Source of the DNA: Candidatus Oxydemutatoraceae bacterium | GTDB lineage: Bacteria > Pseudomonadota > Gammaproteobacteria > Poriferisulfidales > Oxydemutatoraceae | Length of the DNA stretch: 64,000 nucleotides | Direction: 5' to 3' | Assembly (NCBI GenBank): GCA_965219575.1 | Contig: OZ244779.1 | Span: 1,260,769-1,324,768, forward strand | Shown: one piece after another, positions 26,380-53,184 of the stretch | How positions within the stretch are numbered: position 1 is the stretch's first letter | Layout: each line of letters opens with the position of its first letter | Position numbers and translations under genes: made by a program | The notes under the pieces: generated by a model | Told to the model about the DNA's origin: nothing | Database searches by the model: none | The model's input: only the letters and a program-made list of their open reading frames with translations

Positions 26380-26405
26380 GGGCGGACATGCAAGTCCGCC
26401 CCTAC
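26380..26405 (-). repeat. GTAG-type REP hairpin (vacant IS110 target)
   Basis: Reverse complement reads GTAG-GGGCGGAC-TTGCAT-GTCCGCCC. Confidence 0.8.
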
Positions 26406-41500: not shown

Positions 41501-44319
41501 ACGCGAGTACTCCCACCGAATTAATCAAAGAGAATATCCTTAGCTTAAGCGAAGGGGATGTCGTCCGCTTCGATGCCTCAAGGAGTTTCGGACCGAACAA
41601 TTCGCGGTTGGATTACCGGTGGAGTCAAGTATCGGGGAAACCCTTACTGTCGGGAATAAGAACCGCATCTACCGGAGAGTTGATGATACCTGTGGATTTA
41701 TTTGCCGAAGACGAGGACGATAGCACGGTGATCCTAAAACTAGAACTGAGCGAGAGCAATAATCCGGCATCTGCGCTAAGCATAGAAATACCGTTATCGG
41801 TGCGCAAGGCAAACAACGGAAATGCCGAAAGTGGTGTGAAATGGATAAATAGCGATACGCTTTCGGCAGGCGATCTGTCGGACGATATAGACGGAGATCC
41901 ACTGATTGATGTAGCCTATCTATGGTCGTCGGAACAAAACGGTAGATTTGTCGCTATACCCGGTGCGACTCGAAAAAGCTATACGCCTCCCGAAAATGCT
42001 CGCAACGCACAATACAGAGTCTCTATAAGCTACACCGATGCACAAGGTTACCGAACCACCGCTCACTACGACGCACCGCAATTTATAACGATTGCCAACT
42101 TCGTCGATAAAGACAGCGACGGTTTGATAGAGATCGAGACACTCGAGGCACTCGATGCGATTCGTTATCAGACGGACGGTAGCGGTTACCGTGCAAGTTC
42201 TACGACGATGATGATTACTACAGGTTGTCCTTTAGTCAACGGTGTAGAGAAATGCCGGGGCTACGAATTAGTCAAGGATTTGGATTTTCTAGACGATGCC
42301 GGCTATAGTTCAACCGCCAATAAAGTAGCTTGGACAACCGGCGCAGGTTGGCAACCTATCGGTATTGTCGCTAACAATGACTGTAGTGATGCGGCTAGCG
42401 ACTGTTTCGCCGCTATTTTGGAAGGCAACGGATATAGCATTTCCAATTTGCGGATCAATAGAGACACCACCGATGAAATAGGTTTGTTTGCCGGAAACAC
42501 CGGCACCATTCGCAATCTCGGATTATCGGAAATAGAAGTAACAGGCAATTCTAGGGTCGGTGGCCTCGTCGGTCGCAACGAAGGTGGACTAATGAATATC
42601 TATGTAGTCGAAGGCAAGGTTGAAGGTCAAAATAACGTTATCGGTCTGTTAACCGGCATCGGCGTGTCGGGTTCGTCGATCATCAATAGTTATGTAATCG
42701 GCACTGTGATAGGTTCTCGTTTTGTCGGTGGTATCTGTGGCATAAACTATGGTGACATGATCGGTAGTTATGCGGTTGCCGATGTTTCGGCACAGCGGGA
42801 GGCAGGTGGTCTGGTCGGCGAGAATCAAGGCACTATCGGCAACAGCTATACATCAGGCTCGGTTAGTATCAATGAGAAAGAACGAGCTGTAGGAGGTCTA
42901 GTCGGTGTATTATGGTCGGGCGGTCGTATTGATAACAGTTACTCGACTGCCGAGGTAAAAACAGACTTTGTTGCAACAGCCAATAGCGATGCGCAGTATG
43001 TAGGTGGTTTAATCGGCAACCGAGAATCACCCAGCCTACAAGTCAATAATAGTTATTGGGATACCGATGCGAGTGGGCGGACGAACTCTTCGGGAGGCGG
43101 TATCGCCAAGACCAAGGCTGAATTGCAAATGCCGACTGTAGCGGGAGCAAGGGTCAATGCTATCTATTACAACTGGGATGCCGACAGATGGGATTTCGGC
43201 ACTTCCGAGGCGTATCCGGCACTCAAATACTACGATAACACTTGTGTCACTGCCACACCGTCGCCGGATTGCGGTAGATTATTGCTCCATCAACGTATCG
43301 GCTTGAGAGATATAAAGCTGGAGCAGAATGTGGAGGGAGAACGACTGTATCTTTCTCCCGATTTTGACTCTACGGTTACAGCTTATACGGTATCGGTGCA
43401 TGCCGATGCGAGCGAATTGGGAATTATCCCGCTAGCGGCTAATCCCGATGCGGATATCGTAGCCGACGGCAAGGTCTTATCGGCAAACCACAGCGGCTAT
43501 ACCATTGCGATAGATACTTCCGAGCCTACCTCTACGGTTATCGAAGTTTCGGCGAGCAATTCGATGGGAACGGAGGATCCCATTGCATATAGATTGACGG
43601 TAAACAATCGTTTGCCCGAGATAGATATTAACGCGCCCGCTTCGATAAGCGAAGGCGAAACCCTTAGATTAAATGCCTCTATAGCAGATGCCGACGGAGA
43701 CGAGTTGCGGTACAGTCTGAGTGCGATTACCGACTTATTGCCGGATTTAGAGGAGACCACCGGCACCGCGGTAGGCGGTGCCGATTCGGTTTATGCGCTT
43801 AACATACCGAGTGATCTGCTCGGTGAGAGGCAAAGCACCGATAATATAAAGATCATGCTGACAGTTGAGGATGGTATGAGTGTTATGAACAAAACGGTGC
43901 GGATATCGATAATCAAAGAAAATAACGGTGTGATATCGGTTGCTACCCCTACGCTGAATGGTTTCACATATACCGTCGGAAATATAGATCTATCGTCGGA
44001 TACGGACGGAATAAATCCTGTTCCCGAAATAGCTTACCGATGGCAAAAGGAACTGTTGGGCAGCTGGTCGGATATCAATGGTGCCACCGCTCAAAGTTAT
44101 ACCGTCGAGGGTATTATAGGTGACCGCTACCGTGTATTGGTCGATTATACCGATAAGCAGGGTTATAGACATCAAAGCGTTGCATCTTCGGCAGTATCGG
44201 TACCGCAGCAATTTACTTATGATGTTCAGAAATCTAGAAGTGCCGTAAGAACTGTAATGGATCGGGCACCGGGTATTTTCATACATATCAGAGTACTCCC
44301 CGAAGGCCTTCTACGGTAA
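26569..44319 (+). CDS. Giant secreted GLUG-repeat / cadherin-like protein, paralog 3 (5916 aa, ten modules)
   Basis: Signal peptide MGGSTKFLLLLIAVSWVSVSA-Q; colinear with paralog 2 throughout; ends IHIRVLPEGLLR*. Confidence 0.88.
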   Translation: MGGSTKFLLLLIAVSWVSVSAQDVFECDYAADVDQDKDGLIEICDVDALDAIRYQLDGSGYRESFDTVKVTAGCPRSGCNGYELRKDLDFDADDSYRDLGNKAAWTSGLGWLPIGTRLNFFTARFEGNGHTIANLYIDRPSDYVGLFKATMRRAKISDLVLSQINIKGNSYVGGLAGHNAGSVVYVGVENGRLIGMGNTVGGLFGANAGTILNGDVILRRVEGNGHSLGGLVGHNEGHITHSVADTGLFGVSQVGGLVGLNFGGVLTNSRSDGTANGSDYIGGLVGLNRARISASYAEGKVISDGSYSGGLVGANNRGGRIADSRASGAVSGNLYAGGLVGWNKDSEITNSFAVSRVDGNSDVGGLVGWNESGRISNTYANGFVTGVDRVGGLVGSNRGIVSDSFANGQVVASGMHAGGLIGWNHAYQTRDAVAVRVTHSYWDSEAAEISLSAGGSPRTTQQLRSPTAPGLPGETFERWDVADWDFGTDEQYPILRHSEGSNEGHLLPGQYIMLSGLLVLDGLTLSPAFDPQTFDYRVYLSDDSLRQIRFSPTIANSTQTISVLKDEKTGLPSVINGETVPINLNGVPEPTLVTIARHYRIWVLRQTGLQATISSDRSDYRVSEGQNIVLNVLTSEPDVRRVRYRWSQVSPMQPDLLKDLNTRQAELNINIPDDFVAQDNDESPVVLQVEVRVGGTTVVRNTTITVVRTNNGSINTLAAPTYREGTLAVADISEADLSVDPDGGVDINSFRYRWQYKLPSATRWHDIKDATQTRYEIPAVLSAIDNIGYRVGLDYRDNQGHRHRIVSEPVSVVQVVEDDGFADIYYLEDLNAIRNQLDGRYELARDLDFNSDASYRDPINKAKWTVADYGNDADTGWLPVGTIVNRFTGIFDGNGHTIFNLQINRDAADDQGLFGALGSAAIVKNIGLLNVKIEGTQHIGGMVGINAGTIVGSYAVGEFSANSLVGGIVGVNHGKIINSYAGSVISRRSSVPSHLGGLVGTNEGIVINSHATVQILERRSNNVGGLIGWNAVDARVINSYAGGDVGGDVHVGGLTGINRGSITNSYADGEVSGNGSLGGLVGANQIAAAMITNSYAVGRVQGSGSGLVATNEGVIRASYWNIETGGSQGRYGSGRTMQQMQLPTAAIGIYEAWDDADWDFGNSAQYPILKYAPGPDGDACGVPGLPQCGELISPHLRHGLHSLATAGGIVLSPEFDTEVQNRSGIYIGTLSSTDNTIRLIPTTIEPTAHIGFYIGDDEIAYDTIRSGETSKAISLKAIGMTRIRIEVQGTVTVDYTLYIDYRNIAEFRSINYLEDLRAIHRRPQGSYKLARDLDFADSGSYLDPLNRISWTVEDYNDAGDVGWVPIGSESKPFAGRFDGNGHTISGLQINRDDADNQSLLGVTASSAVISNIGLLNVKIEGGAKVAGLVGTNRGQVGYSYVGGSIESKSIEGVGGGLVANNDGGDIIGSRALSQVSGTQFIGGLVGDNNGRIINSHADSIVMPGSGGSRFGGLVGRNRSLIANSYASGEILFGGTSSIKGGLVGWNDLQARIVNGYAAVGIVGAIAGGLVGYNLGAIENSYAIGELSGGNSTRGSLVGNNAGGTIVVSYWNSDTIASGGNNGIGQTSAQLRSATPTVPMNSIYKDWDTDDWDFGTSEQYPILKYTTATESIFECDSSGMPQCGNLVSPGLRYGLRDLTAADDVTFSPPLDVDRLNQSGVYSATVFGEHPSIRLIPVAIESTARISFIGDKHEILDSHDTSSPISLKNEVIKKVVVEVKGTKTVRYTLYLSYMHHRVIDEDGDGLVDIDYLEDLDAVRHQLDGSGYRADAGSVKITSGCPSAGCRGYELLRDLDFNDAAGYRNADANMGRWTGAGAWQPIGSDRATFTATFKGNNKTIANLSVRAGGGLFTAIGSDSRVAYIDGIGLSAVDIKGDVVAGIAASCVQCTISNSYVIGNIQGTAAVAGLLNTISATNGGRASISNSYFIGNLAVNGPSAVGGGLVGDVDSDLTITDSYVVGRITAEHDDGFIGGLVGVRTSSALDIVNSYASIAATKADVSQGLFGGNRNPSARLAPTVHTSYLDKDISQAEVTLGKLKSTVALQSQAPTTPTDSIYKDWDTDDWDFGTAKQYPAIKYNLQAHATDGDAHCGTADIRRRPDACRTLLRHQGSLLQDLKLSEGLGLSSPFAHTSFDYGISVNADRSTIRMLPTAFNEIATIEVIKDDNAIGETDSGKWTVPIPLNDSGDTVFSLVVKDGKRHSYRYRFVVNRLGIVAQSIDEDGDGFIDISNATHLDAVRHRLDGSAYQQSETVDALYCSNGCSGYELTADIDLAGVEWQPIGSLNEPFSGVFRGNGHTISNLTIKTGNATGMGLFEVIGAGGRVENVGLVNVNIAGQNNVGTIAGYNFGTIINSHADGNLVVVNSYVGGLVGRNNGGTIVNSYANVDVHANNIYAGGLVGWNEANSFIVNSYAIGTVRANNGLAGGLVGSSPKGAKIHNSYAAGDVRVQTDGNLAGGLIASGGLIVSSYYKAGAVISRANSLIGIDKTAVELKAGVPSDDIYTEWDRADWHFGNTEQYPALLYAPANADDTACRQPSLEQLSACNGGLFGALSEHDRAVVCRSHLPRLPEQTPYCGALLPEQRAGLVRLEFSKNASLIPAFNPEIYDYDLVVDSGITFRTTPTAYYGSDTITVNIDDLGSSTSSGRSSSITLNDDLDSIVLRVQSATPGMPTRYTIKVLQDIAVVDGLITIDYLEDLNLMRHSLEQVSATLKDCPIDTEDGVRRCKGYRLVGDLDFKNPTSYRAGNLNPIWTTGSGWQPIGNRSNPFSGLFSGNAHTLSNLRIHDIPVGDIGLFGVVADDARIENIGLLNADIDVDNSRHSLFDIGGLVGENYGEIINSHVVGGRVRGDFFVGGLVGRNEGGTIVNSHANVSVNGRTNITGGLVGSNAIDGKIHNSYASGAVVGNDFVGGLVGISTGDIRNSYASGAVVGNGFVGGLVGELSQQGIEVSNSYAIGKVTGRRLVGGLIGSITNAGIRDAVNASYWDIDTSNITGSVAGIGKTTAELRTPAIGNGIYSNWDGNDWYSESSSQYPALRYTGATDVVARPACRETGDDGAELPICGDLLPDQSIGLSNLARSNRTGQVLLLRPDFNSGIYDYELILKSDAREFSIIPYTFNPDAVITLNDDSETNRHRELRSGKGTTLTIGDIDDLLLTLAVEDRLISGTTQTTLYSIKVSKHSFVTVNDIDEDDDGLIEVRSADDLNAIRYQLDGSGYKADRDDTKITVGCPTTPTVGCKGYELAASIDLSGFDWHPIGVIDATTLDCNDTQSRCFAAIFDGNRALGYEISGLSIATSQRDNVGLFAALADAAQVKNLNLADVEVGGHFGVGSLTAYNAGAIDNSSADGTVAGEHAVGGLVAYNVGRISDSYAYGAVSGDRIVGGLVARNESSGVIANSYSLNRVSGNTGIGGLVALNLGAIANTYASGVVEGVTLIGGLVGDNGGSVRNSYATADIVCTGVPACTSYTVATGGLIGRNTGGIAVNSYWDTGVSNIRISAGGVGKTTLQLQSGSGQSSDASRAYYRWRSSDWHFGDVYQYPILKYTGGSENTLAGLQSYGLASLTIAEVVTLSPNFNTTKLHYRVGVDLDANIKRLHLTPNALDEDATIRIFSDNGFDETIKTGTGSSAIVLHSTATTVIGVEVSGDRRVRYRFEVNYFSSGTKRDVDTDRDGLIEILTLEDLDAMRNALDGKSLRHQNADGVSIKNARGCPMTGCRGYELLRDLDFDNPAHYRTGSVNTAWTSGASWQPIGTQRHPFTATFKGNGYTISNLKVNRPDSDGGLFGVIDGSESNVVIESLGLSDVDIVGGAHVGGLVGTNRAGDIRKSYVIGSVTTRGYGTSEMVGGLVGRNIAGSITESYSETQVKANLAAELSVALAGGLVALNDDRSRIENSYAIGSVVGRDSVGGLVALNRNSSEIVDSYAVNKAIAIGAMSKVGGLVAVNDAVVGDSYWDIEVSGVVSSAGGTSATTITLQSSTPTSPINSVYRNWDADVWEFSDAGRYPTLKALDHASLLAPDGKSLLQSLTLSDNVRLFPSFHPLIFDYDLIAESGQIAEVRLNTTSTRAATTIDIACSTGLVCSSGIPMSFVLNGSDTPEITITTNNSDAGVLSYNFSVRYGEPNIKRVTATTTTVISLPLAVAEGERVRLIASYDFGLSADLYHYRWRQSTGDALRFNDMQSPVDTQSAVLDFTVPGNVVSQQDDRRVVRLILEIVVNEAVYLSKVLPLIISKRDNDAASRIRVLKDDDKLHTYTVKFERADGSEFVDRDGGFTETFIQWQRRRSEAESWIDLASTPTYTIPNEGNYQYRALALYEDNQGYRGQFESEVIDYSDIDDDGDGLIEIRYLEELDAIRYRLDGSGYKATASVDKITTGCPLVNGIEKCRGYELMNDLDFNDNESYRALDPSLLKNSWTVSDFTDASDLGWQPIGGFNAVFNGNGYTISNMQINRSVGNTNSIGLFSQIGAVGKVKNLGLVDPTIKGLVGIKNVGGIAGAIQRGGVIINSHVVGDVGAGNTDKIITGDVGFAGGRGFIGGLVGWNRGFILNSYAKINVVAEDSGTLENKRVGVGGLVGRNIDGGKVYNSYATGEVKGPCVVGGLVGNQFSANSDSLLTRSEIKNSYATGNVETGFGTCVNSNNKFAGGLVGFNNNSRVENSYTLGEVLGDGTRGGLVAGKFPVGNTSIANPINSYWNYEQNCHFAVSFGFVLGVQCFGITGGTKNVRIPNNLRSPIAPNTMFNSCVESYAGGLDPEDVCTTYVGWNTADWDFGTTKQYPALKYGVGLDRNAPGCDTDPKTALPSCNALLPGQIADTVLLNSLSVSANSSAVRLIPSFMPSRFNYEAIIVAETVPALIKVATGVEEDTAITIRKDGGAPLIKQSDGTVQISTNDSFNLGIKTTSGDERAANYRIQVHLSYLPQPKILQVINASTPTELIKENILSLSEGDVVRFDASRSFGPNNSRLDYRWSQVSGKPLLSGIRTASTGELMIPVDLFAEDEDDSTVILKLELSESNNPASALSIEIPLSVRKANNGNAESGVKWINSDTLSAGDLSDDIDGDPLIDVAYLWSSEQNGRFVAIPGATRKSYTPPENARNAQYRVSISYTDAQGYRTTAHYDAPQFITIANFVDKDSDGLIEIETLEALDAIRYQTDGSGYRASSTTMMITTGCPLVNGVEKCRGYELVKDLDFLDDAGYSSTANKVAWTTGAGWQPIGIVANNDCSDAASDCFAAILEGNGYSISNLRINRDTTDEIGLFAGNTGTIRNLGLSEIEVTGNSRVGGLVGRNEGGLMNIYVVEGKVEGQNNVIGLLTGIGVSGSSIINSYVIGTVIGSRFVGGICGINYGDMIGSYAVADVSAQREAGGLVGENQGTIGNSYTSGSVSINEKERAVGGLVGVLWSGGRIDNSYSTAEVKTDFVATANSDAQYVGGLIGNRESPSLQVNNSYWDTDASGRTNSSGGGIAKTKAELQMPTVAGARVNAIYYNWDADRWDFGTSEAYPALKYYDNTCVTATPSPDCGRLLLHQRIGLRDIKLEQNVEGERLYLSPDFDSTVTAYTVSVHADASELGIIPLAANPDADIVADGKVLSANHSGYTIAIDTSEPTSTVIEVSASNSMGTEDPIAYRLTVNNRLPEIDINAPASISEGETLRLNASIADADGDELRYSLSAITDLLPDLEETTGTAVGGADSVYALNIPSDLLGERQSTDNIKIMLTVEDGMSVMNKTVRISIIKENNGVISVATPTLNGFTYTVGNIDLSSDTDGINPVPEIAYRWQKELLGSWSDINGATAQSYTVEGIIGDRYRVLVDYTDKQGYRHQSVASSAVSVPQQFTYDVQKSRSAVRTVMDRAPGIFIHIRVLPEGLLR

Positions 44320-44325
44320 TCCATT

Positions 44326-44371
44326 TCCCTCCTGTGGAGGGGTGGCAGGTTGAGCCTGACGGGGTGATCGC
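44326..44371 (+). repeat. CCCTCC/GGAGGG hairpin repeat following a stop codon
   Basis: TCCCTCCTGTGGAGGGGTGGCAGGTTGAGCCTGACGGGGTGATCGC; a second, split copy lies at 52835-52856 plus 52949-52970. Confidence 0.7.
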
Positions 44372-44377
44372 CGGGGG

Positions 44378-44670
44378 AGGGCTGTTGAAAAAGTATCCAC
44401 GAACCGTAGGGGCGGACTTGCATGTCCGCCCGTGACGCGTTGGTCGGCACGATTTATACATTCATTCACCCGATTTATGGAAACCAAAACCATGCAGCGC
44501 AAGCGGTTACGGTTATTCTGGACAGTACTTAAGGGCAGACATCAGAGTTGCCGATTGACCTACCGGCTCAATCGGCGGCTTTATACCGCCCCTACGGCTT
44601 GGTGGTTATTATAAATTCAAGGCGTGCAGCGGTTGGGTTTGAGCGATGCCCGCACTTTTTCAACAGCCCA
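44378..44670. mobile_element. MITE copy 2 (opposite orientation to copy 1)
   Basis: GGGCTGTTGAAAAAG ... CTTTTTCAACAGCCC ends. About the first 110 bp are the reverse complement of the right part of copy 1. REP at 44406-44431; the second REP carries an extra hairpin (44550-44576). No target duplication visible. Confidence 0.8.
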
Positions 44671-44830
44671 AGCGTGTCTGAATCAGTTAATCTCTCTCCT
44701 TCGGAAGAGAATATCACCCTCTAATATACCGTTCAACATGTATTTACTACCGTTCATCGATTTGTTTCCCACCCTACTCAATACCGGGTTTAGGGTAGAT
44801 GTTTTACACCCAATTTATAGGAGATTTACT

Positions 44831-45779
44831 ATGGATGAAAAACATCTCGGATACTTAGACTTGACAAAAGATATTTCCTTTAAGCGATACTTGTCGATCA
44901 ATAAGCAAGTATTGTTCTCGTTGATTAAGAGCTTCCTGCCGACCTCCGATAATGCGCCGGATATGATGACATTCAACCCCGGCATACTCAACCCTGCATC
45001 CAAAACTGCAAATCAACAAAGCCGATCGGGCGATAAGCTACATCTGCAGGATAGTTCTATCCCACCGGACACACCGGGTGGCAAACAGGTTGTGCTAGAC
45101 CTCCATGTCAAGTTACATAGCGGTGAGAATATCAACATAGAGATGCAGGGCTACTCTCAAAAGGACTTCTTTAGTAGAATGTTGGCTTATTGGGTGCAGT
45201 TGCACTCTTATGGTATGAGGCGTGGGCAGAAGTTTGATCAGATTGATCCGAGCTACTTACTGGTGTTTACTCGGTTCACGGTGTTTGATGAAGAGGACTA
45301 TATAAACGAGACAATAATCACTCTGCGTAAGCATCGGCATAAAGAATTGACTAAGGACTTTGGGTTGGTGATAGTGGAATTGAGCAAGTTCAACAAGAAC
45401 TACCTTGAGTTGGTTGATATGACGGATAGGTGGTGCTATCATCAAGCACTCGGCGGAATTGACGGCTGAGCAAGTAAAGCATTTATCACAAGACGGAGAG
45501 ACGAAGATGGCATTAAAACATTTAGAGAAAGTATCAAAAGAGAATAGAGAGTACTGGAACGCTATATTGCTAGAAAGACAAGAGTGGGACCGCCACGTGA
45601 GAAAGCAAGAGATCATGGAAGAAGTCAAGGCAGAAGGGTTGGCAGAAGGTAAAGTAAAAAGAGATCACGAAATTGCTTTGAACATGTTGCAAAAAGGCCT
45701 GAAGGTTTCGTTGATTTCCGAAGTCACGGGTTTATCTGCCGACGAGATTAAACAGCTAAAGAGTAGAACTGCCGATTGA
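44831..45779 (+). pseudogene. Rpn-family recombination-promoting nuclease / PD-(D/E)XK putative transposase, frameshifted near 45440
   Basis: ATG 44831 with an AGGAG RBS. Motifs LDLTKDISFK, VLDLHV, INIEMQ, R.LAYW, IVELSKF, DRWCY; after TGG TGC TAT C the typical continuation IKHSAEL...EG.AEG...IALNMLQKG....ISEVTGLS.DEI lies in another frame. Confidence 0.8.
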
Positions 45780-45797
45780 GCCGATAGATCAATCGAC
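45771..45797 (-). repeat. 27-bp GCCGATTGA-N9-TCAATCGGC hairpin, reverse-orientation degenerate copy overlapping the Rpn stop codon
   Basis: GCCGATTGA-GCCGATAGA-TCAATCGAC versus the reverse complement of the other copies, GCCGATTGA-GCCGGTAGG-TCAATCGGC. Confidence 0.65.
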
Positions 45798-45962
45798 AGA
45801 GACGAGATGAGCCTTTTAACTATTTAGGTGGATAAATGGATAATTGTGCAGACATTCTTGGGGCTGTTGAAGAAGTGAGGACATCGTTCAAACCCAATCG
45901 CTGTGCGCCGTGAATACTTGCAAACCACCTGTAGGGGCGGACTAACATGATGCCTTATTAAA

Positions 45963-45968
45963 AATCAA
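45963..45968 (-). promoter_or_regulatory. -35 box (TTGATT) of the IS110 circle-junction promoter
   Basis: In the circular form it lies 17 nt from TATATT at 47262-47257. Confidence 0.75.
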
Positions 45969-46009
45969 GCCATTTTATTCATTTTTTATCTCCTTTTTTG
46001 AGTATCGAT

Positions 46010-46996
46010 TCAGGATGCAGATGCGCAACAATAATTCGGGTCAAACGGCTTCCTGTATCTGAGTATTCCGTAAATAATACGTGCCAGCTTATGGGCGCAA
46101 GCAACAATAATCTGCTTTTTAGTTAACTCCGGACGCCGCCGACTTAATTGGTCGGCAAAGGCACGGATGATTGGGTTATGAACCCGTGCCGAGAGTGCCG
46201 CCATAAACAGCAGGGTGCGCAGTTCGGCATCGCCCATTTTAGAGATATGCGCCTTCGCCTCGTAGTTGCCGGACTGCCGGCGCCTTGGGTTGAGACCGAC
46301 ATAGACTGCGAATTGCTCTGCGTTATCAAATGTCTTATCATTGAAAACAGCACACAGGGCAATCGCCGTCTGAGTGCCGATGCCGGTAATGGAACACAGC
46401 AACTGCTCAAGCTCTGCGAGTTGCTCGTCTTGAGCGATAATTCGCTCCATTTCGGCATCCTGCTTAGCAATCTGCTTGTCAAAGTATCTCAGGTTCTCAG
46501 CTGCTCGTTTTTTTTGCCTTGCATCGCATAAGGTTTTCATACAATTACTTAACCCGGTATGATCTTTGACTAATTGCCTGCGCACTTTTCGTGCATCTCT
46601 CAAGGCGAGTGCAGTCGGTGACGGCATTTGCCAATCTTTACCGTCAACAGCGAATGCGAACAGTGCGATGAGCCGCGCATCATCGCGATCGGTTTTATTG
46701 TGCATACCAAGCGATTTACGGAAGCTGGCAACCTGCGCCGGTTTGACAATCCTAATCGGATGTTGCGCCAGATAGCCGGCTTTGCACAGGGCGAACTCAA
46801 AACCGCCGGTGGCTTCAACACAGATGCGACAGTGCGGTGCGCAGTGTTTGCTAGCCCAAGCTAACAGTTGCTTAATGCCTTTGGCATCATTGCTAAATTG
46901 TGCCTCGGCAAAACTATTATCGGTGAATAATAGAGCGGCCTCTAAAGTGTCTTTAGAGACATCCACGCCGATTATGGCAGGGTGTTTGTTTTCCAT
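46010..46996 (-). CDS. IS110-family DEDD recombinase (bridge recombinase)
   Basis: RuvC-like DEDD motifs GVDVSK, CVEATG, KTDRDDA; Tnp domain SITGIG..TA, GLNP..RQSG, ISKMG...LR..L, ACAHKLARIIYG. Start placed at the second Met (46996) because GGAGGA lies just upstream of it. Confidence 0.95.
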   Translation of the reverse strand: MENKHPAIIGVDVSKDTLEAALLFTDNSFAEAQFSNDAKGIKQLLAWASKHCAPHCRICVEATGGFEFALCKAGYLAQHPIRIVKPAQVASFRKSLGMHNKTDRDDARLIALFAFAVDGKDWQMPSPTALALRDARKVRRQLVKDHTGLSNCMKTLCDARQKKRAAENLRYFDKQIAKQDAEMERIIAQDEQLAELEQLLCSITGIGTQTAIALCAVFNDKTFDNAEQFAVYVGLNPRRRQSGNYEAKAHISKMGDAELRTLLFMAALSARVHNPIIRAFADQLSRRRPELTKKQIIVACAHKLARIIYGILRYRKPFDPNYCCASAS

Positions 46997-47054
46997 AATA
47001 ATATCCTCCATTATGGTTGTTCAGTGAATAAAATACTCGGTAGCCAGTTCAGGA

Positions 47055-47250
47055 AAGTATGACTACGCCGCCCACACAGGTAAATACGAGATCTAAAGTC
47101 TCAAGCTGCCTTCCGAGCTCTATAGTCATAGCGCCGGAGGAGTGCTTTTCATGCTAACAGGCTTTAATGCCTCGTCCGTCCTGCGGCGTGTCTCCTCCGA
47201 CTTCCTAGGTACTGCAACTACCTAAGCATTTATCTTATATAAATAAGCTA
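47055..47250 (-). ncRNA. Predicted bridge RNA (5' hairpin, target-binding loop, donor-binding loop)
   Basis: Three stems: 47206-47224; CGGAGGAG/CTCCTCCG (47135-47199) with inner AGGC/GCCT hairpin; TATGACTA/TAGTCATA (47058-47130) with inner GAGA/TCTC hairpin. The loop guides match the target and donor sequences. Ends are approximate. Confidence 0.85.
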
Positions 47251-47256
47251 GGGTTT

Positions 47257-47262
47257 AATATA
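47257..47262 (-). promoter_or_regulatory. -10 box (TATATT) of the IS110 circle-junction promoter
   Basis: Lies two bases inside the element end, next to the core. Confidence 0.75.
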
Positions 47263-47523
47263 CCTGTCCGCCCGTAACGCGTTGGTCGGCACGATTTATA
47301 CATTCATTCATTCAATTTATGGAAACCAAAACCAAATGGCGCAAAGCGGTTAGGTTTGTGCATGACGTTAGTTAAGGGCAGACATCAGAGTTGCCGATTG
47401 ACCTACCGGCTCAATCGGCGGCTTTATACTGCCCCTACGGCTTGGTGGTTATTATAAATTCACGGCGCAAGCGGTTACGGTTGCAAGCTGACGATACTTT
47501 TTCAACAGTCCCACATCGTAAAT

Positions 47524-47551
47524 TTGCATATATGTCAGATTACACTATAAT
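47524..47551 (+). promoter_or_regulatory. Putative sigma70 promoter of the LRR/FN3 gene
   Basis: TTGCAT (47524-47529), 16 nt, TATAAT (47546-47551). Confidence 0.45.
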
Positions 47552-47574
47552 TTATTCCAGTACTCCTCAATATC

Positions 47575-50500
47575 ATGCTTAAAAATATAATAATGCGAGG
47601 TTTATTTACCTCTCGATTTATTCGGCAAGCAGTCGTTTTGTCCGTCTTGTGTTGCTTGCCGGTTATCGGTGTCGCACAATCCACTTTGGTATTCGGCACG
47701 CCGTCGATCGCACCTGCCGAACTTCGTTGGGGGGGGGATTATACACTATCGTTTCTTGCGATTAGCCAAGAACAACCCACGCAAGCGACGACGCTGACGC
47801 TCCATATAACGGAGAATGGTATCAGCAGGCGCATAGACGAAACGCCCTATGGTCTGGCAAACGAATTTTTGCCGTTGCAGAGACAGGTTTCCATACCCGC
47901 TTTAGGTATCAGAACTTCTGCTATGATCAATGCACGAGGGACGGCAGGCATCGGTCTTGTCGGAACGGTTGCTTTTAGATATTGCGACGATACGCAAACA
48001 CTCTGTACGGAGGCTTTCAATGTCGATTATCTAAGCGACACGCCGAGCCGTGATATAAACGGGAATTACCGGCTGTCCATCACAACATCGACCGTGGTAT
48101 CGGGGTCGTGTGCTGCGGTGCGTGAGCGAGAACAGCGAATTGAGATGAGCCAAGCAGGCAACACGGCAAGTTATCGTTTCACCGACGATTTCGGATTGTC
48201 GGCGATGCTTCAGGCGGCGATAAGTTCCAACACTTATGTATTCACGAGGCAATACGGCACTGCGCCGGCATTTAACGGCACGCGCACACTGATCGTACGA
48301 GCCGAGTTTAGCGACAACGATAACGGCAACGGGCGCGCGTATTGGTCATACCAACGCGCCGACGGCAACTTGTGTCGTGGCACTTACGAGGTGCAATATA
48401 GCAAGCGATCGGGGGCGATCAAAGTACGGGCGCGGGTATTTTTAGAAGGTGCGCTGAGTGGCGGTATCTCTAATATAGTTTCAGGTGCTACACCGCCTAC
48501 GCTGCCCGAGCGAGTGCAAGACACGGTGCTGTCCGAGTCGGGTGCATTATACGCATTGAGAGACGACCACACGCTATGGACGGTTAATCCGTCGGGTTCA
48601 AGACAACAACTAGTGTCCACCAGTTTTAAGGTCGGCGAGGTGGATATTCATGATTTGGTCTTTGTCGGGCGTAGCGACAGCACCGACAGGCTGTATATCG
48701 TCGATAGTTTTCTGCGTGCGGTGATTGCGGTTGATTTGACCGACGGCAGTCGCAATGTGGTTTCCGGGTGCGACATCGCCAACCGCTGTCCGTCGGGGCA
48801 ATACCGGGTGGGCGACGGTGTGCCGTTAACGCAACCGACCGATGCGGTGTTGGACGAGGCTGGCAATCGCCTGATTATCACCGATACTTATTTGAGCGCA
48901 CTTGTCGCAGTGGATTTAACGAACGGCAACCGCAGTGTGGTTTCGGGATGCACGGCAAACGATTTATGTCCTGTTGAGGAACGCAACATCGGAGACGGCA
49001 CCGTCATGCTACACCCGCAAGCGTTGAGCATCAATAGTTCTGTGACCCGTATCGTCGTCGTAGACGACCGGCTGGACGCACTGCTCGTGGTGGATGCGAC
49101 GACCGGTGAGAGAGTCATCGTTTCGGGCTGTTTGGTGCGAGCGATATGCGTGATACCGGAAAGGGGTTCCGGCCCCTCGTTCGATCAACCGATTGCAGTG
49201 GTGCTGGACGACGATGCCGGTTTGGCGTATGTTGCGGACAATGGTTTGAGGGCTGTAGTCGAGGTTGACCTTGATAACGGCAACCGCACCGTTCTATTGA
49301 GTCCGGTCACCGTCCGAGCACCGTATCATCTGATCTTAGACGCAGACACGGAGCGGGTGCTGGTCTACAGTGATGCCGACGGTTCGCTGACTGCGATTCC
49401 CCAAGCGGCGCGCACCCCGACGCAACTAACGACCTATATCAGAACCGGAAGCACCGCAACCTCGCCGCCTGCGCCGCCGCGCGATTTGATTCTTGAGGCA
49501 CGCGACGATGTCATTGCGCTCAGCTGGCGACCGGTAAATCGGGCAACCTCGTATAAGATTTATTGGAACAGCTTTGCCGATATTAATGCCGCTCAAGCGG
49601 ATCAAGTCATCTCGGATATCTACGGCACCGGCTATGTACACACCGGGCTAATCCGAGGGCAACTTTATTACTACGCGGTGAGTGCAGTCAATGAGCAGGG
49701 TGAGAGTGCCGTCAGCCCGGCGGTGAGCATAATGTTGCCGCTACCAACCGGCAACGACGAAACACCCCCGACTGCGCCGGTCATCGTGTCTGCGTATGCT
49801 TCTTCCACGACCGCCATTGCACTGGATTGGATGGCATCGACCGACGACCGCAGTGCTGCCGAGCAGATCGTCTACGAAGTGCATGTCTCCGAAAGCACCG
49901 CAACCACGATCGGCAAAGACACCGAACGGGTGATGGTGCAGGGCATCTATAGTGCCAATGTCGATGACCTCAAAACCAGCCAGACCTACTATGTGCATGT
50001 TGCCGCACTGGACGAGGCAGGCAACCGTAGCCTCTCGGAGATGATATCGATACGCACGATGTCGATGATGCCGAAATTGTCCACCCAAAACGAGGTGGTG
50101 CTGATACGGATTGATACGGAACTGAACGCCGACGGCACGATTATCGTAGACCGTCGCGACGATCTGAAAGTGGGACAAGTTGCGATCATGATGGGACAAG
50201 ACGACAGCTATCTGAGAAGGATTACCCGTATTGAAATCGTCGGTAGCGACCAAATGCTACTCTATACCGAACAGGCATCGCTGGCCGATGTATTCTCAGA
50301 CCTCAGCTTGAACATGAATGTTAGACTGGAGGATGTGGACGACGATGCGGCGATTGCGGCAGCGAAATCGGCACAAGTGCGTGCCGAGCAACGAGGCGAG
50401 CCGGCACCGCCGGCGGACACCAAACTCAGGCGGTTCTCCCCGGCACTGCGCTCGCCGATGTCGGTTCCGCCGTCCGAAGTGTGGCCGTATCAACCGATCT

Positions 50501-52833
50501 TCGAGGGCGGCGAGCAAATCCGTGAGATGCACTGGCCGGATAGCGGCTTTAGACTACGCCAGTCCGAACCGCTCAGCCAAACCGACGATCTACTCGATAG
50601 CATCAAAGATGCGGTAGGGCTACGCTCGGAGCAACAGCCGTCCGAACCGGATATTCCTGCGACTTATGAACATGAAAATATCCGCATTATCACAACAGGC
50701 TTTTTCGGTCTATTCGGCGACATCATAAAAGTTTGGTATCCGCCTTATGTGACAGCCGAAGTCAACAAGGTTGCCTCGTTTGATGTTTATGTTGAATATC
50801 CCGAGAACTTTAGCGAACGGTGTTCGGTGACCATAGACGACATCACCCAAAGAGGTACGAGCCGGGGAAGGCAGGGTGCTTCGGTGAGAGCTAAACCGGC
50901 AAGTGCCGATGCAAGGATTGTGGAACATCGTGTGCGCTGGCGAACTTACGAACGGCATAAGAGTCGCGATGAATGGAAAATGGAGCTTTTGTTCGGCTAT
51001 CCATGCGAGCGAAGTATTACGGTGCCGATTGCTGTTTCTTCCGATAAACCTGTGAATCTTTCCTTCCAAGGAGAGGTGACGATACCGATACCCTCAATAC
51101 CCGATGGCGAACAGCGATTCCATGGCGATATGGATCTGGATTTTGACCCTGAAATTAAAATCTCTTATGATCGAGAATCATCCAAACACGGAACTCTCGA
51201 GGTCGTTGTCGGTGGCGATGTAGATCTAGACATACTACTAGAAATAATTACTGCATCCGGATATACGCTAGATGGAGAAAAAGAAATAGGTAAAAAGAAA
51301 AGTTTCTATCGGCTCATATTTGTACCTACTTTGGGAATACCGATACCGGTTGTGGTTAACGGTGAGCTTGGCTTTAAGGTAAGAGGTGAGGCTGGAGTAT
51401 CGGCCGAGATGAACATTGCCCAGACATTTCAATCAACCTATAAATTAAGGGCAGGTTTTAGATACAAAAACGGTAGATTTGTGCCTATCAGCAGTGCCGA
51501 CAGTAGCAGCGAATACGAAATCACGGTTAAGACAGCAGCCGGAATGATGGTTAAGTTTTCGCTGATTCCTCAACTGGACTTGGGGCTTTACGCCTCCATT
51601 CTTACGAATGTTCAATTAATTCCTTATGTGCAGGGCAATGGCGATGTTGAGGGAATATTCGAGCGAGGGAGTGGTGTTTCTTTAGAGGCAGCTATTGACA
51701 GCAGTGATTATCGCTTCACGAGGTTGGATTCAAGTTTAGGAATTGCGTCAAACATAAATGTGGATCTTGAACCTATTCTTATCCCCTTCGCCGAATCGTA
51801 TGAATTATTTGACTTGCGTCGTGCGATTACATCGCTACCGGAAATGCAGCTGAGACAAGGTAGAAATGACGAAAATACCTATACCGTGCGGGTTACACCG
51901 GGGCAATGGTTTGGTAGGGAGAGGAACAAAATCCAACAGGGCATGTGGTCGGTTGTTCCACCCGAAGGTGCGCCTAGATTGATAAGAGTTGACGAAAACA
52001 CCGTCCGAGTGGATGACTCACAAGAGATAGAAGAAGACAAATACAAGCTACGCTATACCGGACACAGTCGATACGGTAGAGTAATTCAGCAATATCAGGA
52101 AATACCAATCGCTGTGCAACTACTGGGTGTATGCGATAGAACACCACAGGTGCGGGATGAAATCAAACAACGGGTTGACAAAGACGACTGTGCCGAGATT
52201 AGTGCGGAAGACCTCGCTACGATTACAAGAATGTTTCTTGATGAAGAGTCGATATTTCCTTCATTATCTTCTTTATTGACCGGTGATTTTAGCGGTTTAA
52301 CTAGTCTGGAGTGGTTGGATTTGGGCGACAACGAGCTAAGCACGCTCCCCGAGGGTATCTTTAGCGGTTTAACTAGTCTGGGGCGGTTGGATTTGGATGG
52401 CAACGAGCTAAGTACGCTCCCCGAGGGTATCTTTAGCGGTTTAACTAGGCTGTATGAGTTGAGTTTGGATAACAACAAGCTAAGTACGCTCCCCGAGGGT
52501 ATCTTTAGCGGTTTAACTAGGCTGGAGTGGTTGGGTTTGGGCGACAATAATCTAAGTACGCTCCCCGAGGATATTTTTAGCGGTTTAACTAGGCTGTATG
52601 AGTTGAGGTTGGATAACAACAAGCTAAGTACGCTGCCCGAGGATATCTTTAGCGGTTTAACTAGTCTGGAGTATTTGTATTTGTATGGTAACGAGCTAAG
52701 CACGCTTCCCGAGGATATCTTTAGTGGTTTAACTAGTCTGCAGTGGTTGGTTTTGAGGAACAACAATTTGGGTAACGATTACTGTACGGCTTTGAGAAAT
52801 CAGCTATCACTTAGTCGCTTTAGCTGTGATTAA
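47575..52833 (+). CDS. Secreted multidomain protein: beta-propeller-like (NHL-type) repeats, two fibronectin type III domains, unknown middle region, C-terminal leucine-rich repeats
   Basis: Signal-like N-terminus (RQAVVLSVLCCLPVIGVA-Q; start may be the Met at 47593). Repeats L.I.D..L.A..AVDL..G.R.VVSGC; FN3 motifs IALSW.PV..A.SY.IYW...GL..G..YYYAVSAVN..GES and ALDW.ASTDD...YY..VAALDEAGN; LRR cap VCDRTPQVRD..C and 24-aa LRRs. Confidence 0.85.
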   Translation: MLKNIIMRGLFTSRFIRQAVVLSVLCCLPVIGVAQSTLVFGTPSIAPAELRWGGDYTLSFLAISQEQPTQATTLTLHITENGISRRIDETPYGLANEFLPLQRQVSIPALGIRTSAMINARGTAGIGLVGTVAFRYCDDTQTLCTEAFNVDYLSDTPSRDINGNYRLSITTSTVVSGSCAAVREREQRIEMSQAGNTASYRFTDDFGLSAMLQAAISSNTYVFTRQYGTAPAFNGTRTLIVRAEFSDNDNGNGRAYWSYQRADGNLCRGTYEVQYSKRSGAIKVRARVFLEGALSGGISNIVSGATPPTLPERVQDTVLSESGALYALRDDHTLWTVNPSGSRQQLVSTSFKVGEVDIHDLVFVGRSDSTDRLYIVDSFLRAVIAVDLTDGSRNVVSGCDIANRCPSGQYRVGDGVPLTQPTDAVLDEAGNRLIITDTYLSALVAVDLTNGNRSVVSGCTANDLCPVEERNIGDGTVMLHPQALSINSSVTRIVVVDDRLDALLVVDATTGERVIVSGCLVRAICVIPERGSGPSFDQPIAVVLDDDAGLAYVADNGLRAVVEVDLDNGNRTVLLSPVTVRAPYHLILDADTERVLVYSDADGSLTAIPQAARTPTQLTTYIRTGSTATSPPAPPRDLILEARDDVIALSWRPVNRATSYKIYWNSFADINAAQADQVISDIYGTGYVHTGLIRGQLYYYAVSAVNEQGESAVSPAVSIMLPLPTGNDETPPTAPVIVSAYASSTTAIALDWMASTDDRSAAEQIVYEVHVSESTATTIGKDTERVMVQGIYSANVDDLKTSQTYYVHVAALDEAGNRSLSEMISIRTMSMMPKLSTQNEVVLIRIDTELNADGTIIVDRRDDLKVGQVAIMMGQDDSYLRRITRIEIVGSDQMLLYTEQASLADVFSDLSLNMNVRLEDVDDDAAIAAAKSAQVRAEQRGEPAPPADTKLRRFSPALRSPMSVPPSEVWPYQPIFEGGEQIREMHWPDSGFRLRQSEPLSQTDDLLDSIKDAVGLRSEQQPSEPDIPATYEHENIRIITTGFFGLFGDIIKVWYPPYVTAEVNKVASFDVYVEYPENFSERCSVTIDDITQRGTSRGRQGASVRAKPASADARIVEHRVRWRTYERHKSRDEWKMELLFGYPCERSITVPIAVSSDKPVNLSFQGEVTIPIPSIPDGEQRFHGDMDLDFDPEIKISYDRESSKHGTLEVVVGGDVDLDILLEIITASGYTLDGEKEIGKKKSFYRLIFVPTLGIPIPVVVNGELGFKVRGEAGVSAEMNIAQTFQSTYKLRAGFRYKNGRFVPISSADSSSEYEITVKTAAGMMVKFSLIPQLDLGLYASILTNVQLIPYVQGNGDVEGIFERGSGVSLEAAIDSSDYRFTRLDSSLGIASNINVDLEPILIPFAESYELFDLRRAITSLPEMQLRQGRNDENTYTVRVTPGQWFGRERNKIQQGMWSVVPPEGAPRLIRVDENTVRVDDSQEIEEDKYKLRYTGHSRYGRVIQQYQEIPIAVQLLGVCDRTPQVRDEIKQRVDKDDCAEISAEDLATITRMFLDEESIFPSLSSLLTGDFSGLTSLEWLDLGDNELSTLPEGIFSGLTSLGRLDLDGNELSTLPEGIFSGLTRLYELSLDNNKLSTLPEGIFSGLTRLEWLGLGDNNLSTLPEDIFSGLTRLYELRLDNNKLSTLPEDIFSGLTSLEYLYLYGNELSTLPEDIFSGLTSLQWLVLRNNNLGNDYCTALRNQLSLSRFSCD
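52288..52770 (+). repeat. Seven 72-bp tandem repeats encoding 24-aa LRRs
   Basis: TTTAG[C/T]GGTTTAACTAG at 52288, 52360, 52432, 52504, 52576, 52648 and 52720. Confidence 0.95.
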
Positions 52834-52975: not shown

Positions 52976-53184
52976 GGGGCTGTTGAAAAAGTGCGGCATC
53001 GTACGAATCCAATCACTTGCGCCATTTGGTTTTGGTTTCCATAAATTGGATGGATGAATGTATAAATCGTGTAAGCACAACGCGTTACGGGCGGACATGC
53101 TAGTCCGCCCCTATGGGTGGTTTGCAAATATTCACGGTGCAAGCGGTTGGATTTTTGCGCTAACAATACTTTTTCAACAATCGC
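52976..53184. mobile_element. MITE copy 4 (shorter, single REP, degenerate right TIR)
   Basis: GGGGCTGTTGAAAAAG at 52976 and TTTTTCAACA at 53170-53179. Internal sequence is shared with copy 1; REP GGGCGGACATGCTAGTCCGCCCCTAT at 53089-53114. Confidence 0.75.

What the first reader, a model, noticed from the sequence alone, without database searches (positions are those of the whole stretch)
45931..47273. IS110 inserted precisely into a REP carried by a MITE; three vacant targets in the window
Seen: removing 45950-47266 restores GTAGGGGCGGACTAACATGTCCGCCC. Near-identical empty REPs occur at 26380-26405, 44406-44431 and 53089-53114, all inside the same MITE family. Inference: the IS110 parasitises a mobile, non-autonomous element that spreads its landing pads through intergenic DNA and may carry it as cargo, giving three nested levels (IS110 in REP in MITE).
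Basis: partly seen in the sequence, partly recalled or inferred. Interest (0 to 1): 0.8.

Follow-up and report, generated by a model that had tools for sequence, protein, structure and literature searches.

The report
IS110 element sitting in REP hairpin
A small jumping gene of the IS110 family has landed in one of about 300 copies of a short palindromic repeat, apparently steered by its own guide RNA; this is an ordinary example of a mechanism described in 2024.

Summary
Window 45950-47266 is a 1,317-bp IS110-family element, with its transposase on the minus strand (DEDD_Tnp_IS110 + Transposase_20). It splits a REP hairpin, and 2 bp (TG on +, CA on the element strand) occur at both junctions. 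All 7 of 7 full copies in the 2.37-Mb genome sit at the same position and orientation in a REP.

The roughly 200-nt left end folds into two internal-loop stem-loops laid out like the IS621 bridge RNA. The first loop matches the REP and the second matches the element's own ends. Guide and target vary together:
- Two subfamilies in this genome differ by one guide base and occupy the matching REP loop variants.
- In 26 copies from four species of the genus, 19 right-target guides pair perfectly and 3 more pair with a single wobble.

The REP lies in a 205-330-bp element with terminal inverted repeats and 4-5-bp flanking duplications. It shares its ends with a RAYT-like gene cassette, so "MITE" is a fair name.

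The "cargo" idea has no support. Repeat arms around different IS copies are only 55-83% identical, and the share of occupied REPs inside complete repeats (5/7) matches the background (201/302).

Verdict: a new member of a known kind, of modest interest.

The parts
45950..47266 (-). IS110-family insertion sequence, 1,317 bp counted with one copy of the 2-bp core. No terminal inverted repeats.
   Evidence: 7 full-length genome copies share the same ends. Deleting it restores the REP.
45948..45949 (.). Core dinucleotide TG (CA on the element strand), flank copy. The second copy is at 47265-47266.
   Evidence: 2 bp are identical at both junctions in 7 of 7 copies.
46010..47011 (-). Transposase/recombinase ORF, 333 aa. 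The likely true start is the ATG at 46996 (328 aa), preceded by GGAGGA.
   Evidence: PF01548 E 3.2e-21 and PF02371 E 1.6e-22. NF033542 223.5 bits (cut-off 140). IS621 chain 8wt6_A E 4.1e-44 over residues 13-326..
47058..47248 (-). Predicted bridge RNA in the left end: two 5' hairpins (47234-47248, 47204-47227), a target-binding stem-loop (47133-47201) and a donor-binding stem-loop (47058-47130).
   Evidence: MFE fold; consensus fold of 11 variants, 52 pairs; coordinates.
47174..47181 (-). Left target guide GGACGGAC, on the 5' side of the first internal loop. It equals the top-strand REP arm plus the first core base at 7 of 8 positions, so it would pair with the bottom strand.
   Evidence: The pairing rule comes from PMC11208160.
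47150..47156 (-). Right target guide UAGCAUG, on the 3' side of the first loop. It is complementary to core + loop CATGCTA. At this copy the target is CATGTTA, which gives one G-T wobble.
47105..47112 (-). Left donor guide AAGGCAGC, on the 5' side of the second loop. It equals the right-end terminus AAGGCAT + C at 7 of 8 positions.
47077..47082 (-). Right donor guide UACCUG, on the 3' side of the second loop. It is complementary to core + left-end start CAGGTA.
   Evidence: the guide base and left-end position 4 agree in 26 of 26 copies.
47257..47262 (-). -10-like hexamer TATATT at left-end positions 5-10. It finds a -35 partner only after circularisation.
   Evidence: TTGATT, 17 nt, TATATT across the right-end/left-end junction, with no such pair in the integrated context; no promoter-like site upstream of the RNA in the integrated element.
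45963..45968 (-). -35-like hexamer TTGATT in the right end.
45931..45949 (+). Left part of the split REP: GTAG, the 8-nt arm and part of the loop.
47267..47273 (+). Right part of the split REP (the rest of the 3' arm).
45860..47512 (.). Host repeat (MITE/REPIN-like, about 332 bp without the IS) bounded by inverted ends.
26380..26405 (-). Vacant REP. It reads CATGCAA on the element strand, a perfect match to the B-subfamily guide. It lies inside repeat 26181-26433, which also holds the variant REP at 26257-26278.
44406..44431 (+). Vacant REP (CATGCAA type) inside repeat 44378-44670.
53089..53114 (-). Vacant REP (CATGCTA type, a perfect match to this element's own guide) inside repeat 52976-53184. 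Its tetranucleotide reads CTAT.

Best explanation
Window 45950-47266 is an intact IS110-group insertion sequence that moves by bridge-RNA-guided recombination.

Proposed cycle:
1. The element excises as a circle. Joining right end to left end creates a sigma-70-type promoter (TTGATT, 17 nt, TATATT).
2. That promoter drives a roughly 200-nt RNA from the left end.
3. The RNA has two internal-loop stem-loops.
[quoted passage not shown] - In the second loop, AAGGCAGC and UACCUG recognise the element's own right-end terminus and left-end start around the same CA core.
4. The DEDD/Ser recombinase exchanges strands at the CA core and places the element in the REP without a scar.

Shown here:
- the anatomy of the element;
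- 7 of 7 identical insertion sites;
- guide-target and guide-donor complementarity, and their co-variation;
- homology to IS621.

Inferred: transcription, circle formation and catalysis.

The REPs are supplied by a TIR- and TSD-bounded REPIN-like repeat that shares its ends with a RAYT-like gene cassette. The IS uses these REPs only as landing pads.
For: Protein:
- PF01548 + PF02371.
- NF033542 'IS110 family RNA-guided transposase', 223.5 bits against a cut-off of 140.
- Full-length alignment to the IS621 transposase, E 4.1e-44, with the D, E, D..D and S motif positions aligned.

Site specificity:
- 7 of 7 full copies lie at the same REP position and orientation.
- In the relatives, 24 of 26 copies have a REP arm directly 5' of the core.

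RNA:
- The MFE fold and the consensus fold of 11 variants both give two 5' hairpins followed by two internal-loop stem-loops.
- Variable alignment columns concentrate in the first loop: LTG side 9/12 and RTG side 5/12, against 2/31 in its stems. Durrant et al. report the same pattern, a variable first loop and a conserved second loop.
- The strand rule matches PMC11208160: the 5' side pairs with the bottom strand, the 3' side with the top strand, and the core is included.

Co-variation:
- In this genome, A-type RTG UAGCAUG copies sit in CATGCTA (4) or CATGTTA (1). B-type UUGCAUG copies sit in CATGCAA (2 of 2). Vacant REPs show 36 CATGCTA and about 44 CATGCAA among 296. By my arithmetic the chance of this sorting is about 3e-5 if insertions are independent.
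- Copy c5 carries a B-type transposase but an A-type left end, and it sits in an A-type site.
- Across 26 copies in 4 species, RTG pairing is perfect in 19, wobble-only in 3, has one mismatch in 3, and has a wobble plus a mismatch in 1.
- The RDG base and left-end position 4 agree in 26 of 26 copies.

Promoter: the junction promoter is present only in the circular form.
Against: - There is no expression or circle data. No RNA run holds the stretch, and the contigs laid show no empty-site or circle joint.
- Rfam 15 gave no match at E <= 1, so the RNA is identified by architecture and complementarity only.
- The scaffold stems are invariant. Only 1 of 52 pairs shows a compensatory change, so the fold itself has little co-variation support. 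The MFE z-score is modest at -2.31.
- The LTG is imperfect here (7 of 9 positions, 5 contiguous).
- In the major G016/G017 lineage the LTG matches its own REP arm at only 5 of 9 positions, no better than it matches this genome's arm (my comparison rows). Left-arm recognition by RNA is therefore not demonstrated for that lineage.
- The copies are related, so counts over copies overstate independence.
Confidence: 0.85

Rival explanations
1. The recombinase recognises the REP hairpin as a DNA structure or protein-binding motif. The complementarity in the left end would then be incidental, or would serve only to regulate expression.
For: The REP is a perfect 8-bp-arm palindrome. A 2026 preprint on ISPpu10 reports that a target stem-loop adds specificity beyond base pairing (abstract and section 7 read). 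The LTG of the G016/G017 major lineage matches its REP arm at only 5 of 9 positions.
Against: Single-base differences in the RTG track the REP loop variant that is occupied, both within one genome and across four species. The hybrid c5 follows its RNA type, not its protein type. The RDG co-varies with the left-end start in 26 of 26 copies. A structural contribution on top of RNA guidance is not excluded.
Confidence: 0.1
2. One reading: the MITE carries the IS as cargo, so MITE+IS composites transpose together and the IS specifically parasitises the MITE.
For: All 7 copies have a repeat end 45-88 nt to one side, and 5 of 7 lie in a complete TIR pair. The repeat is itself mobile: flanking direct repeats of 4 nt or more occur in 46 of 126 elements, against 2.7 expected.
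Against: Flanking repeat arms of different IS copies are 55-83% identical, while the IS copies are up to 99.9% identical. The flanks show different repeat subtypes. Occupancy inside complete repeats (5/7) equals the background (201/302).
Confidence: 0.04
3. The REP halves belong to the IS as its own terminal repeats, so nothing was 'targeted'.
For: The two flanks are inverted repeats of each other.
Against: About 296-302 intact REPs exist without any IS. BLAST identity between copies stops exactly at 45950 and 47266. Relatives in G016/G017 sit in a different REP sequence (GGGAGGGC type) with the same element ends.
Confidence: 0.01

Closest known systems
IS621 of Escherichia coli (IS110 family; bridge RNA; structures 8wt6 and others)
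   Same: - Homologous recombinase over its full length (E 4.1e-44).
- Left-end non-coding RNA with a 5' stem-loop followed by target-binding and donor-binding internal loops.
[quoted passage not shown]
- A promoter is rebuilt across the right-end/left-end junction.
- It inserts in REPs.
Source: PMC11208160, passages read.
   Different: - The core is CA here and CT in IS621.
- The REP family is different, and insertion is at the arm/loop boundary of the hairpin.
- There are two 5' hairpins instead of one, and the RNA is about 190-200 nt against 177 nt.
- The host is an uncultured member of a genus whose nearest named record is a 'candidatus Porisulfidus' MAG.
ISPpu9 / ISPpu10 of Pseudomonas putida KT2440 and the other REP-recognising ISs listed by Tobes & Pareja 2006
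   Same: These are multi-copy IS110-family elements, each inserted at one position of a species-specific REP. ISPpu9 has seven copies. The REP targets often occur as convergent pairs. Sources: abstracts of PMC1525189 and PMC12288879; section 7 of the ISPpu10 preprint.
   Different: In ISPpu10 the target stem-loop is a 5' extension of the paired region. Here the guides cover the arm and the loop of the hairpin itself. Here the REPs sit in a TIR- and TSD-bounded repeat.
REPIN/RAYT systems (Bertels & Rainey) and BIMEs of E. coli
   Same: - High-copy palindromes preceded by GTAG, frequently as inverted pairs about 123 bp apart.
- A RAYT-like gene flanked by inverted REPs.
   Different: - The repeat has 14-16-nt terminal inverted repeats and 4-5-bp flanking duplications.
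- The RAYT-like cassette is present in 2 identical copies plus 1 partial copy. It is not single-copy.
- Its NCBIfam score (49 bits) is below the 80-bit cut-off.

Membership tests
IS110 family (IS110 group, bridge-RNA-guided) | [quoted passage not shown] | tested here: met
   E 3.2e-21, residues 14-160; the D, E and D..D motif positions align with IS621.
IS110 family (IS110 group, bridge-RNA-guided) | C-terminal Transposase_20 domain (PF02371) with a conserved serine | tested here: met
   E 1.6e-22; query QSG aligns with IS621 ESG. The identity of the catalytic Ser is recalled, not tested.
IS110 family (IS110 group, bridge-RNA-guided) | No terminal inverted repeats; a 2-bp core at both junctions; scarless relation to the target | tested here: met
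   TG/CA at both junctions in 7 of 7 copies. Deletion restores an intact REP.
IS110 family (IS110 group, bridge-RNA-guided) | Long non-coding left end that folds into a 5' stem-loop plus two internal-loop stem-loops | tested here: met
   The stems are invariant, so support comes from thermodynamics and conservation, not from compensatory changes (1 of 52 pairs).
IS110 family (IS110 group, bridge-RNA-guided) | Loop 1 complementary to the target and loop 2 to the donor, with the published strand rule | tested here: met
   against the rule read. RTG: 19 of 26 perfect. RDG: 26 of 26 concordant. The LTG is weak in one lineage (5 of 9).
IS110 family (IS110 group, bridge-RNA-guided) | Promoter rebuilt across the right-end/left-end junction of the circle | tested here: met
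   (in silico only): TTGATT, 17 nt, TATATT. It is absent in the integrated context.
IS110 family (IS110 group, bridge-RNA-guided) | RNA is expressed, the circle forms and recombination occurs | not testable with these tools
   One search lists no RNA holder. laid short contigs only.
REP (RAYT-associated repetitive extragenic palindrome) | Short, high-copy imperfect palindrome with a conserved 5' GTAG | tested here: met
   296-299 copies in 2.37 Mb, with GTAG/CTAC next to the hairpin. The role of GTAG is recalled from the RAYT literature.
REP (RAYT-associated repetitive extragenic palindrome) | A RAYT gene flanked by inverted REPs in the same genome | tested here: inconclusive
   The 188-aa ORF scores Y1_Tnp 24.1 bits (cut-off 23). 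It matches NF047646 at E 5.2e-13 but at 49 bits, below the 80-bit cut-off. It is flanked by inverted REPs. The six-frame genome search with PF01797 found nothing at E <= 0.001.
MITE | Terminal inverted repeats | tested here: met
   223 forward and 206 reverse ends (up to 1 mismatch), and 126 compact pairs under 450 bp.
MITE | Target-site duplication | tested here: met
   direct repeats of 4 nt or more flank 46 of 126 elements, against 2.7 expected from shuffled pairing. The other 78 of 126 show none.
MITE | An autonomous partner with the same ends | tested here: inconclusive
   a 1,097-bp unit with the same ends carries only the RAYT-like gene. Two copies are about 100% identical exactly between the ends. 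Whether that protein moves the repeat is unknown.

The most novel reading that the evidence does not exclude
The element and its relatives form a natural re-programming series confined to one genus.
- The recombinases have diverged to 58-71% identity, yet the RNA scaffold is almost invariant.
- The 7-nt right target guide has shifted among four variants that track the REP loop variants of each host. This includes hosts whose REP arm has changed from the GGGCGGAC type to the GGGAGGGC type.
- One copy (c5) has swapped its left end and followed the RNA's specificity, not the protein's.
- The landing pads are multiplied by a RAYT-linked repeat with TIRs and TSDs, which itself inserts in yet another repeat. 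That makes four nesting levels.
- A stand-alone RNA that keeps only the target-binding half of the bridge RNA is conserved in two species. It could be a domesticated guide.
Probability: 0.3. Interest if true: 0.5.

Novelty: new member of a known kind. Interest (0 to 1): 0.3.

Why it matters
It adds a clean natural example of bridge-RNA programming. Within one small genome, two guide variants that differ by one base sort onto the matching REP variants, and a natural left-end swap follows the RNA. That could serve as an orthologue set for bridge-recombinase engineering and for studying how an IS tracks a host's changing REP family. It does not change the picture: REPs have been known as IS110 targets since 2003-2006, and the RNA mechanism has been known since 2024.

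Tried and rejected
- Rfam 15 on 44000-48000 at E <= 1 gave no match. No curated bridge-RNA family answered.
- The six-frame genome search with PF01797 found nothing at E <= 0.001. I first read this as 'no RAYT'. An ORF scan between repeat ends then found a 188-aa RAYT-like protein, so that reading was wrong.
- The cargo hypothesis is rejected on flank divergence and on background occupancy.
- A replication-linked orientation is rejected. All 7 copies are on one genome strand, but GC skew puts the origin near 2.33 Mb and the terminus near 1.50 Mb. That gives 5 copies on one replichore and 2 on the other. With vacant REPs at 158 + and 138 -, the two-sided chance is about 0.02 by my arithmetic. 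It remains unexplained.
- PDDEXK_2/Rpn-like genes as the repeat's parent are not supported. There are 13 such genes, and most have repeat ends within 230-460 bp, but the end orientations are inconsistent (F..R, R..F and F..F).
- The promoter scan of the integrated element found 5 promoter-like sites against 2.4 expected, none upstream of the RNA.
- Sequencing runs: no RNA holder is listed. Contigs from 4 runs of 4 studies were laid. They are short, and no joint skips 45950-47266. The loose ends at 45949 and 47265 continue into other REP copies. This says nothing about empty sites or circles.
- The taxonomy look-up of the relative's genus name found no entry.
- Supplementary files of the papers were not opened. 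Supplementary Table 1 of PMC11208160 may list further REP-targeting IS110 elements.
- I did not run the search for homologous proteins, the search of protein representatives, structure prediction or complex prediction.
Full report
**1. The observation**

Reading 45700-47500 shows the left flank ending ...GTAGGGGCGGACTAACATG at 45949 and the right flank starting TCCGCCC at 47267. The dinucleotide TG occurs at 45948-45949 and again at 47265-47266, so the boundary is ambiguous by exactly 2 bp.

The hairpin pattern occurs 4 times in the window against 0.03 expected, and 0 of 100 shuffles reached 4. The one at 53089 has CTAT instead of CTAC. A fourth, variant REP (GGGCAGAC type) lies at 26257.

**2. 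The insert**

The only long ORF is 46010-47011 on the minus strand.
- It carries DEDD_Tnp_IS110 and Transposase_20.
- It passes NCBIfam's 'IS110 family RNA-guided transposase' model at 223.5 bits, against a cut-off of 140.
- It aligns over residues 13-326 with the IS621 transposase of PDB 8wt6 (E 4.1e-44) and with ISCro4 (E 4.4e-41). The acidic and serine motif positions are aligned.
- A GGAGGA seven bases before the second ATG suggests the true start is 46996, giving 328 aa.

**3.

The window is G000:C1:1260769-1324768 of a single 2,369,097-bp contig.

BLAST with the element finds 8 places. Seven are full-length: four at 98-100% identity (subfamily A) and three at 80-81%. The eighth is an 80-nt fragment.

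All 7 of 7 full copies have the same left junction (...GGACTNNCATG|) and the same right junction (|TCCGCCCG...), in the same orientation relative to the REP.

All seven reading frames are open. B-type proteins end about 14 residues earlier, at a TGA.

**4. The targets**

A tolerant regex finds 299 hairpins. Of these, 296 can be oriented by the CTAC: 158 on + and 138 on -. On the element strand the loop classes are:
- CATGTTA: 54 + 4
- CACACAG: 53
- CATGCAA: about 44
- CATGCCA: 36
- CATGCTA: 33 + 3
- CATATAA: 32
- CATACAA: 16
- minor classes

Only 7 of roughly 303 REPs are occupied.

**5. How the site is chosen**

The 255 nt between the core and the first ATG fold into two small hairpins followed by two long stem-loops, each with a large internal loop and a distal hairpin. 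The MFE is -76.9 kcal/mol with z = -2.31. The consensus fold of 11 distinct variants gives the same layout with 52 pairs.

In the first loop:
- The 5' side holds GGACGGAC. It is identical at 7 of 8 positions to the top-strand REP arm plus the first core base.
- The 3' side holds UAGCAUG, the reverse complement of core + loop CATGCTA.

In the second loop:
- The 5' side holds AAGGCAGC. It matches the right-end terminus AAGGCAT + C at 7 of 8 positions.
- The 3' side holds UACCUG, the reverse complement of CAGGTA, which is the core plus the first bases of the left end.

This is the rule Durrant et al. give for IS621. The first loop binds the target and the second binds the donor. The 5' sides pair with the bottom strand over 8-9 nt and the 3' sides with the top strand over 4-7 nt. 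The core is included in every pairing (PMC11208160, passages read).

They also report that the circle rebuilds a promoter across the right-end/left-end junction, and that the first loop is variable while the second is conserved. Both hold here.
- The junction gives TTGATT, 17 nt, TATATT. The integrated context has no such pair.
- Among the 11 variants, variable columns are 9/12 on the LTG side and 5/12 on the RTG side. They are 2/31 in the first loop's stems, 2/10 on the LDG side and 4/12 on the RDG side.

**6. Co-variation**

Within this genome, the five copies with RTG UAGCAUG sit in CATGCTA (four) or CATGTTA (one, the window's copy, with a G-T wobble). The two copies with UUGCAUG both sit in CATGCAA. 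Given the vacant-site frequencies, I estimate the chance of this sorting at about 3e-5, if the insertions are independent.

Copy c5 (genome 1384837-1386161) is a recombinant. Its first ~218 nt are A-type and the rest, including the transposase, is B-type. It sits in an A-type site.

The RDG differs in the same way. A-type ACCUG goes with a left end starting CAGGT. B-type AUCUG goes with CAGAT.

**7. Relatives**

A pattern scan of one genome per species found 4 loci, all in one MAG titled 'uncultured candidatus Porisulfidus sp.'.

A search of the 19 genomes of the family (G000 included) found the recombinase at E <= 1e-40 in G000 and in 3 of 4 other genomes of the same genus. It found none in 14 genomes of five other genera.

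I parsed 26 copies (7 from G000, 6 from G018, 10 from G017, 3 from G016), the loci that searches returned with complete ends. G017 has further copies listed without loci.

RTG against core + RT:
- 19 pair perfectly.
- 3 have a single wobble.
- 3 have one mismatch.
- 1 has a wobble plus a mismatch.

There are four RTG variants: UAGCAUG, UUGCAUG, UGGUAUG and UAACAUG. The RDG base and left-end position 4 agree in 26 of 26 copies.

In G016 and G017 the host REP arm is GGGAGGGC, not GGGCGGAC, and the element still sits at arm-CA-loop.

Against my reading:
- The LTG of the major G016/G017 lineage (GAGAGGAUU) matches its own arm + core at only 5 of 9 positions, no better than it matches this genome's arm.
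- The minor G017 lineage (L018) has 6 contiguous matches.
- In L027 and L030 a partial left-end copy lies between the REP arm and the full element.

**8. The 'MITE'**

BLAST of 44330-44720 against the genome gives 671 HSPs. HSP boundaries pile up at 44379 (68 starts) and 44669 (75 ends).

The ends are inverted: GGCTGTTGAAAAAG and its complement. There are 223 forward and 206 reverse ends at up to 1 mismatch. They form 126 compact pairs in size classes near 205, 250 and 290 bp.

If the element is taken to start two bases outside that motif, 46 of 126 pairs have perfect flanking direct repeats of 4 nt or more, against 2.7 expected from shuffled pairing. So 'MITE' is defensible.

Many elements hold two REPs in inverted orientation about 123 bp apart, which is the REPIN layout.

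An ORF scan between more distant ends found a 188-aa protein.
- It scores Y1_Tnp at 24.1 bits (cut-off 23).
- It matches NCBIfam 'REP-associated tyrosine transposase' at E 5.2e-13, but at 49 bits against a cut-off of 80.
- It is present twice intact and once partial.
- The two intact 1,097-bp units are about 100% identical exactly from end to end and unrelated outside.

The repeat is therefore best described as a REPIN-like derivative of a RAYT-like cassette that has TIRs and TSDs. Which enzyme moves it is open.

**9. IS versus MITE**

Complete end pairs of 450 bp or less enclose 201 of 302 REPs, and 248 of 302 have an end within 130 nt.

Of the 7 occupied REPs, 5 lie in complete pairs. The repeat lengths without the IS are 163-332 bp. 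All 7 have an end 45-88 nt to one side. This is the background rate.

Flanks of different IS copies are 55-83% identical, while the IS copies reach 99.9%. The IS therefore targets the REP. Its nesting in the repeat follows from where REPs live, and nothing suggests joint movement.

**10. Comparison with what is known**

- REPs as IS targets: Tobes & Pareja 2006 (abstract read) list ISPpu9, ISPpu10, ISPa11 and others.
- IS621 in E. coli REPs: Choi et al. 2003, seen only as reference 16.
- ISPpu9: seven copies in REPs (abstract).
- A search for REPIN + RAYT + IS110 returned 6 papers, of which 4 were listed. The one I opened mentions IS1106 beside RAYTs, not IS110 inside REPINs.

I did not find this genus or this element in print, but I ran only the searches.

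**11. Verdict**

The element is a new member of the bridge-RNA-guided IS110 kind, with a tidy natural series of guide-target co-variation. Interest: 0.3.

Noticed in passing
outside the window: G000:C1:~2280530-2280730 (+); locus L046:1501-1701: A stand-alone relative of the first half of the bridge RNA. It keeps the second 5' hairpin, the target-loop outer stem and the distal hairpin. It has its own TATAAT, but no donor loop and no transposase. It is conserved at 85% over 201 nt at one place in G018, while the sequence upstream is unrelated.
   Followed up: partly
outside the window: G000:C1:66168-67264 and 1094635-1095730 (L013, L014); partial copy at 1742925-1743707: A RAYT-like 188-aa gene sits in a 1,097-bp unit with the same inverted ends and REPs as the small repeats. 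Two copies are about 100% identical exactly between the ends. Copy 1 is flanked by a 5-nt direct repeat. A multi-copy RAYT cassette with TIRs and TSDs is unusual for RAYTs.
   Followed up: partly
window 44330-44378 and the flanks of many repeats genome-wide: The repeats and the RAYT cassette often sit inside yet another repeated sequence (TGCAGA..5 nt..ACAACCACCCCGTCAGGC...), with the 5 nt duplicated. This would be a fourth nesting level.
   Followed up: partly
window 44624-45469 (+), with ORF 45459-45779 behind it: A PDDEXK_2/Rpn-like 'transposase' gene lies between two of the repeats and is probably split into two ORFs. The genome holds 13 such genes. Most have repeat ends within 230-460 bp on both sides, and three lie within 1 kb of an IS copy.
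   Followed up: partly
window 44543-44586 and 47390-47432; related hairpins near 52912-52940 and 53272-53300: In some repeats the loop of the second REP (GGGCAGAC type) is replaced by a module of about 44 nt that holds a 9-bp-stem hairpin (GCCGATTGA...TCAATCGGC) followed by a T-rich run. There were about 239 BLAST HSPs in the genome, counting both strands.
   Followed up: no
genome-wide: the 7 IS copies: All 7 copies have the transposase on the same genome strand, although vacant REPs are 158 + and 138 -, and the copies lie on both replichores. The chance is about 0.02. Unexplained.
   Followed up: partly
L030 (G017) and L027 (G016): A partial left-end copy (the first ~54 or ~74 nt, ending in CA) lies directly in front of a complete element. 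This looks like recombination at a pseudo-target inside another copy's left end.
   Followed up: no
window 26569-44319 (+) and 47575-52833 (+): Two giant ORFs of 5,916 and 1,752 aa are bracketed by the repeats. I did not examine them.
   Followed up: no
window 45998: Contigs of three of the four public runs laid carry 10 extra bases behind 45998 in the right end. This is the same indel that separates this copy from genome copies c2-c4.
   Followed up: no
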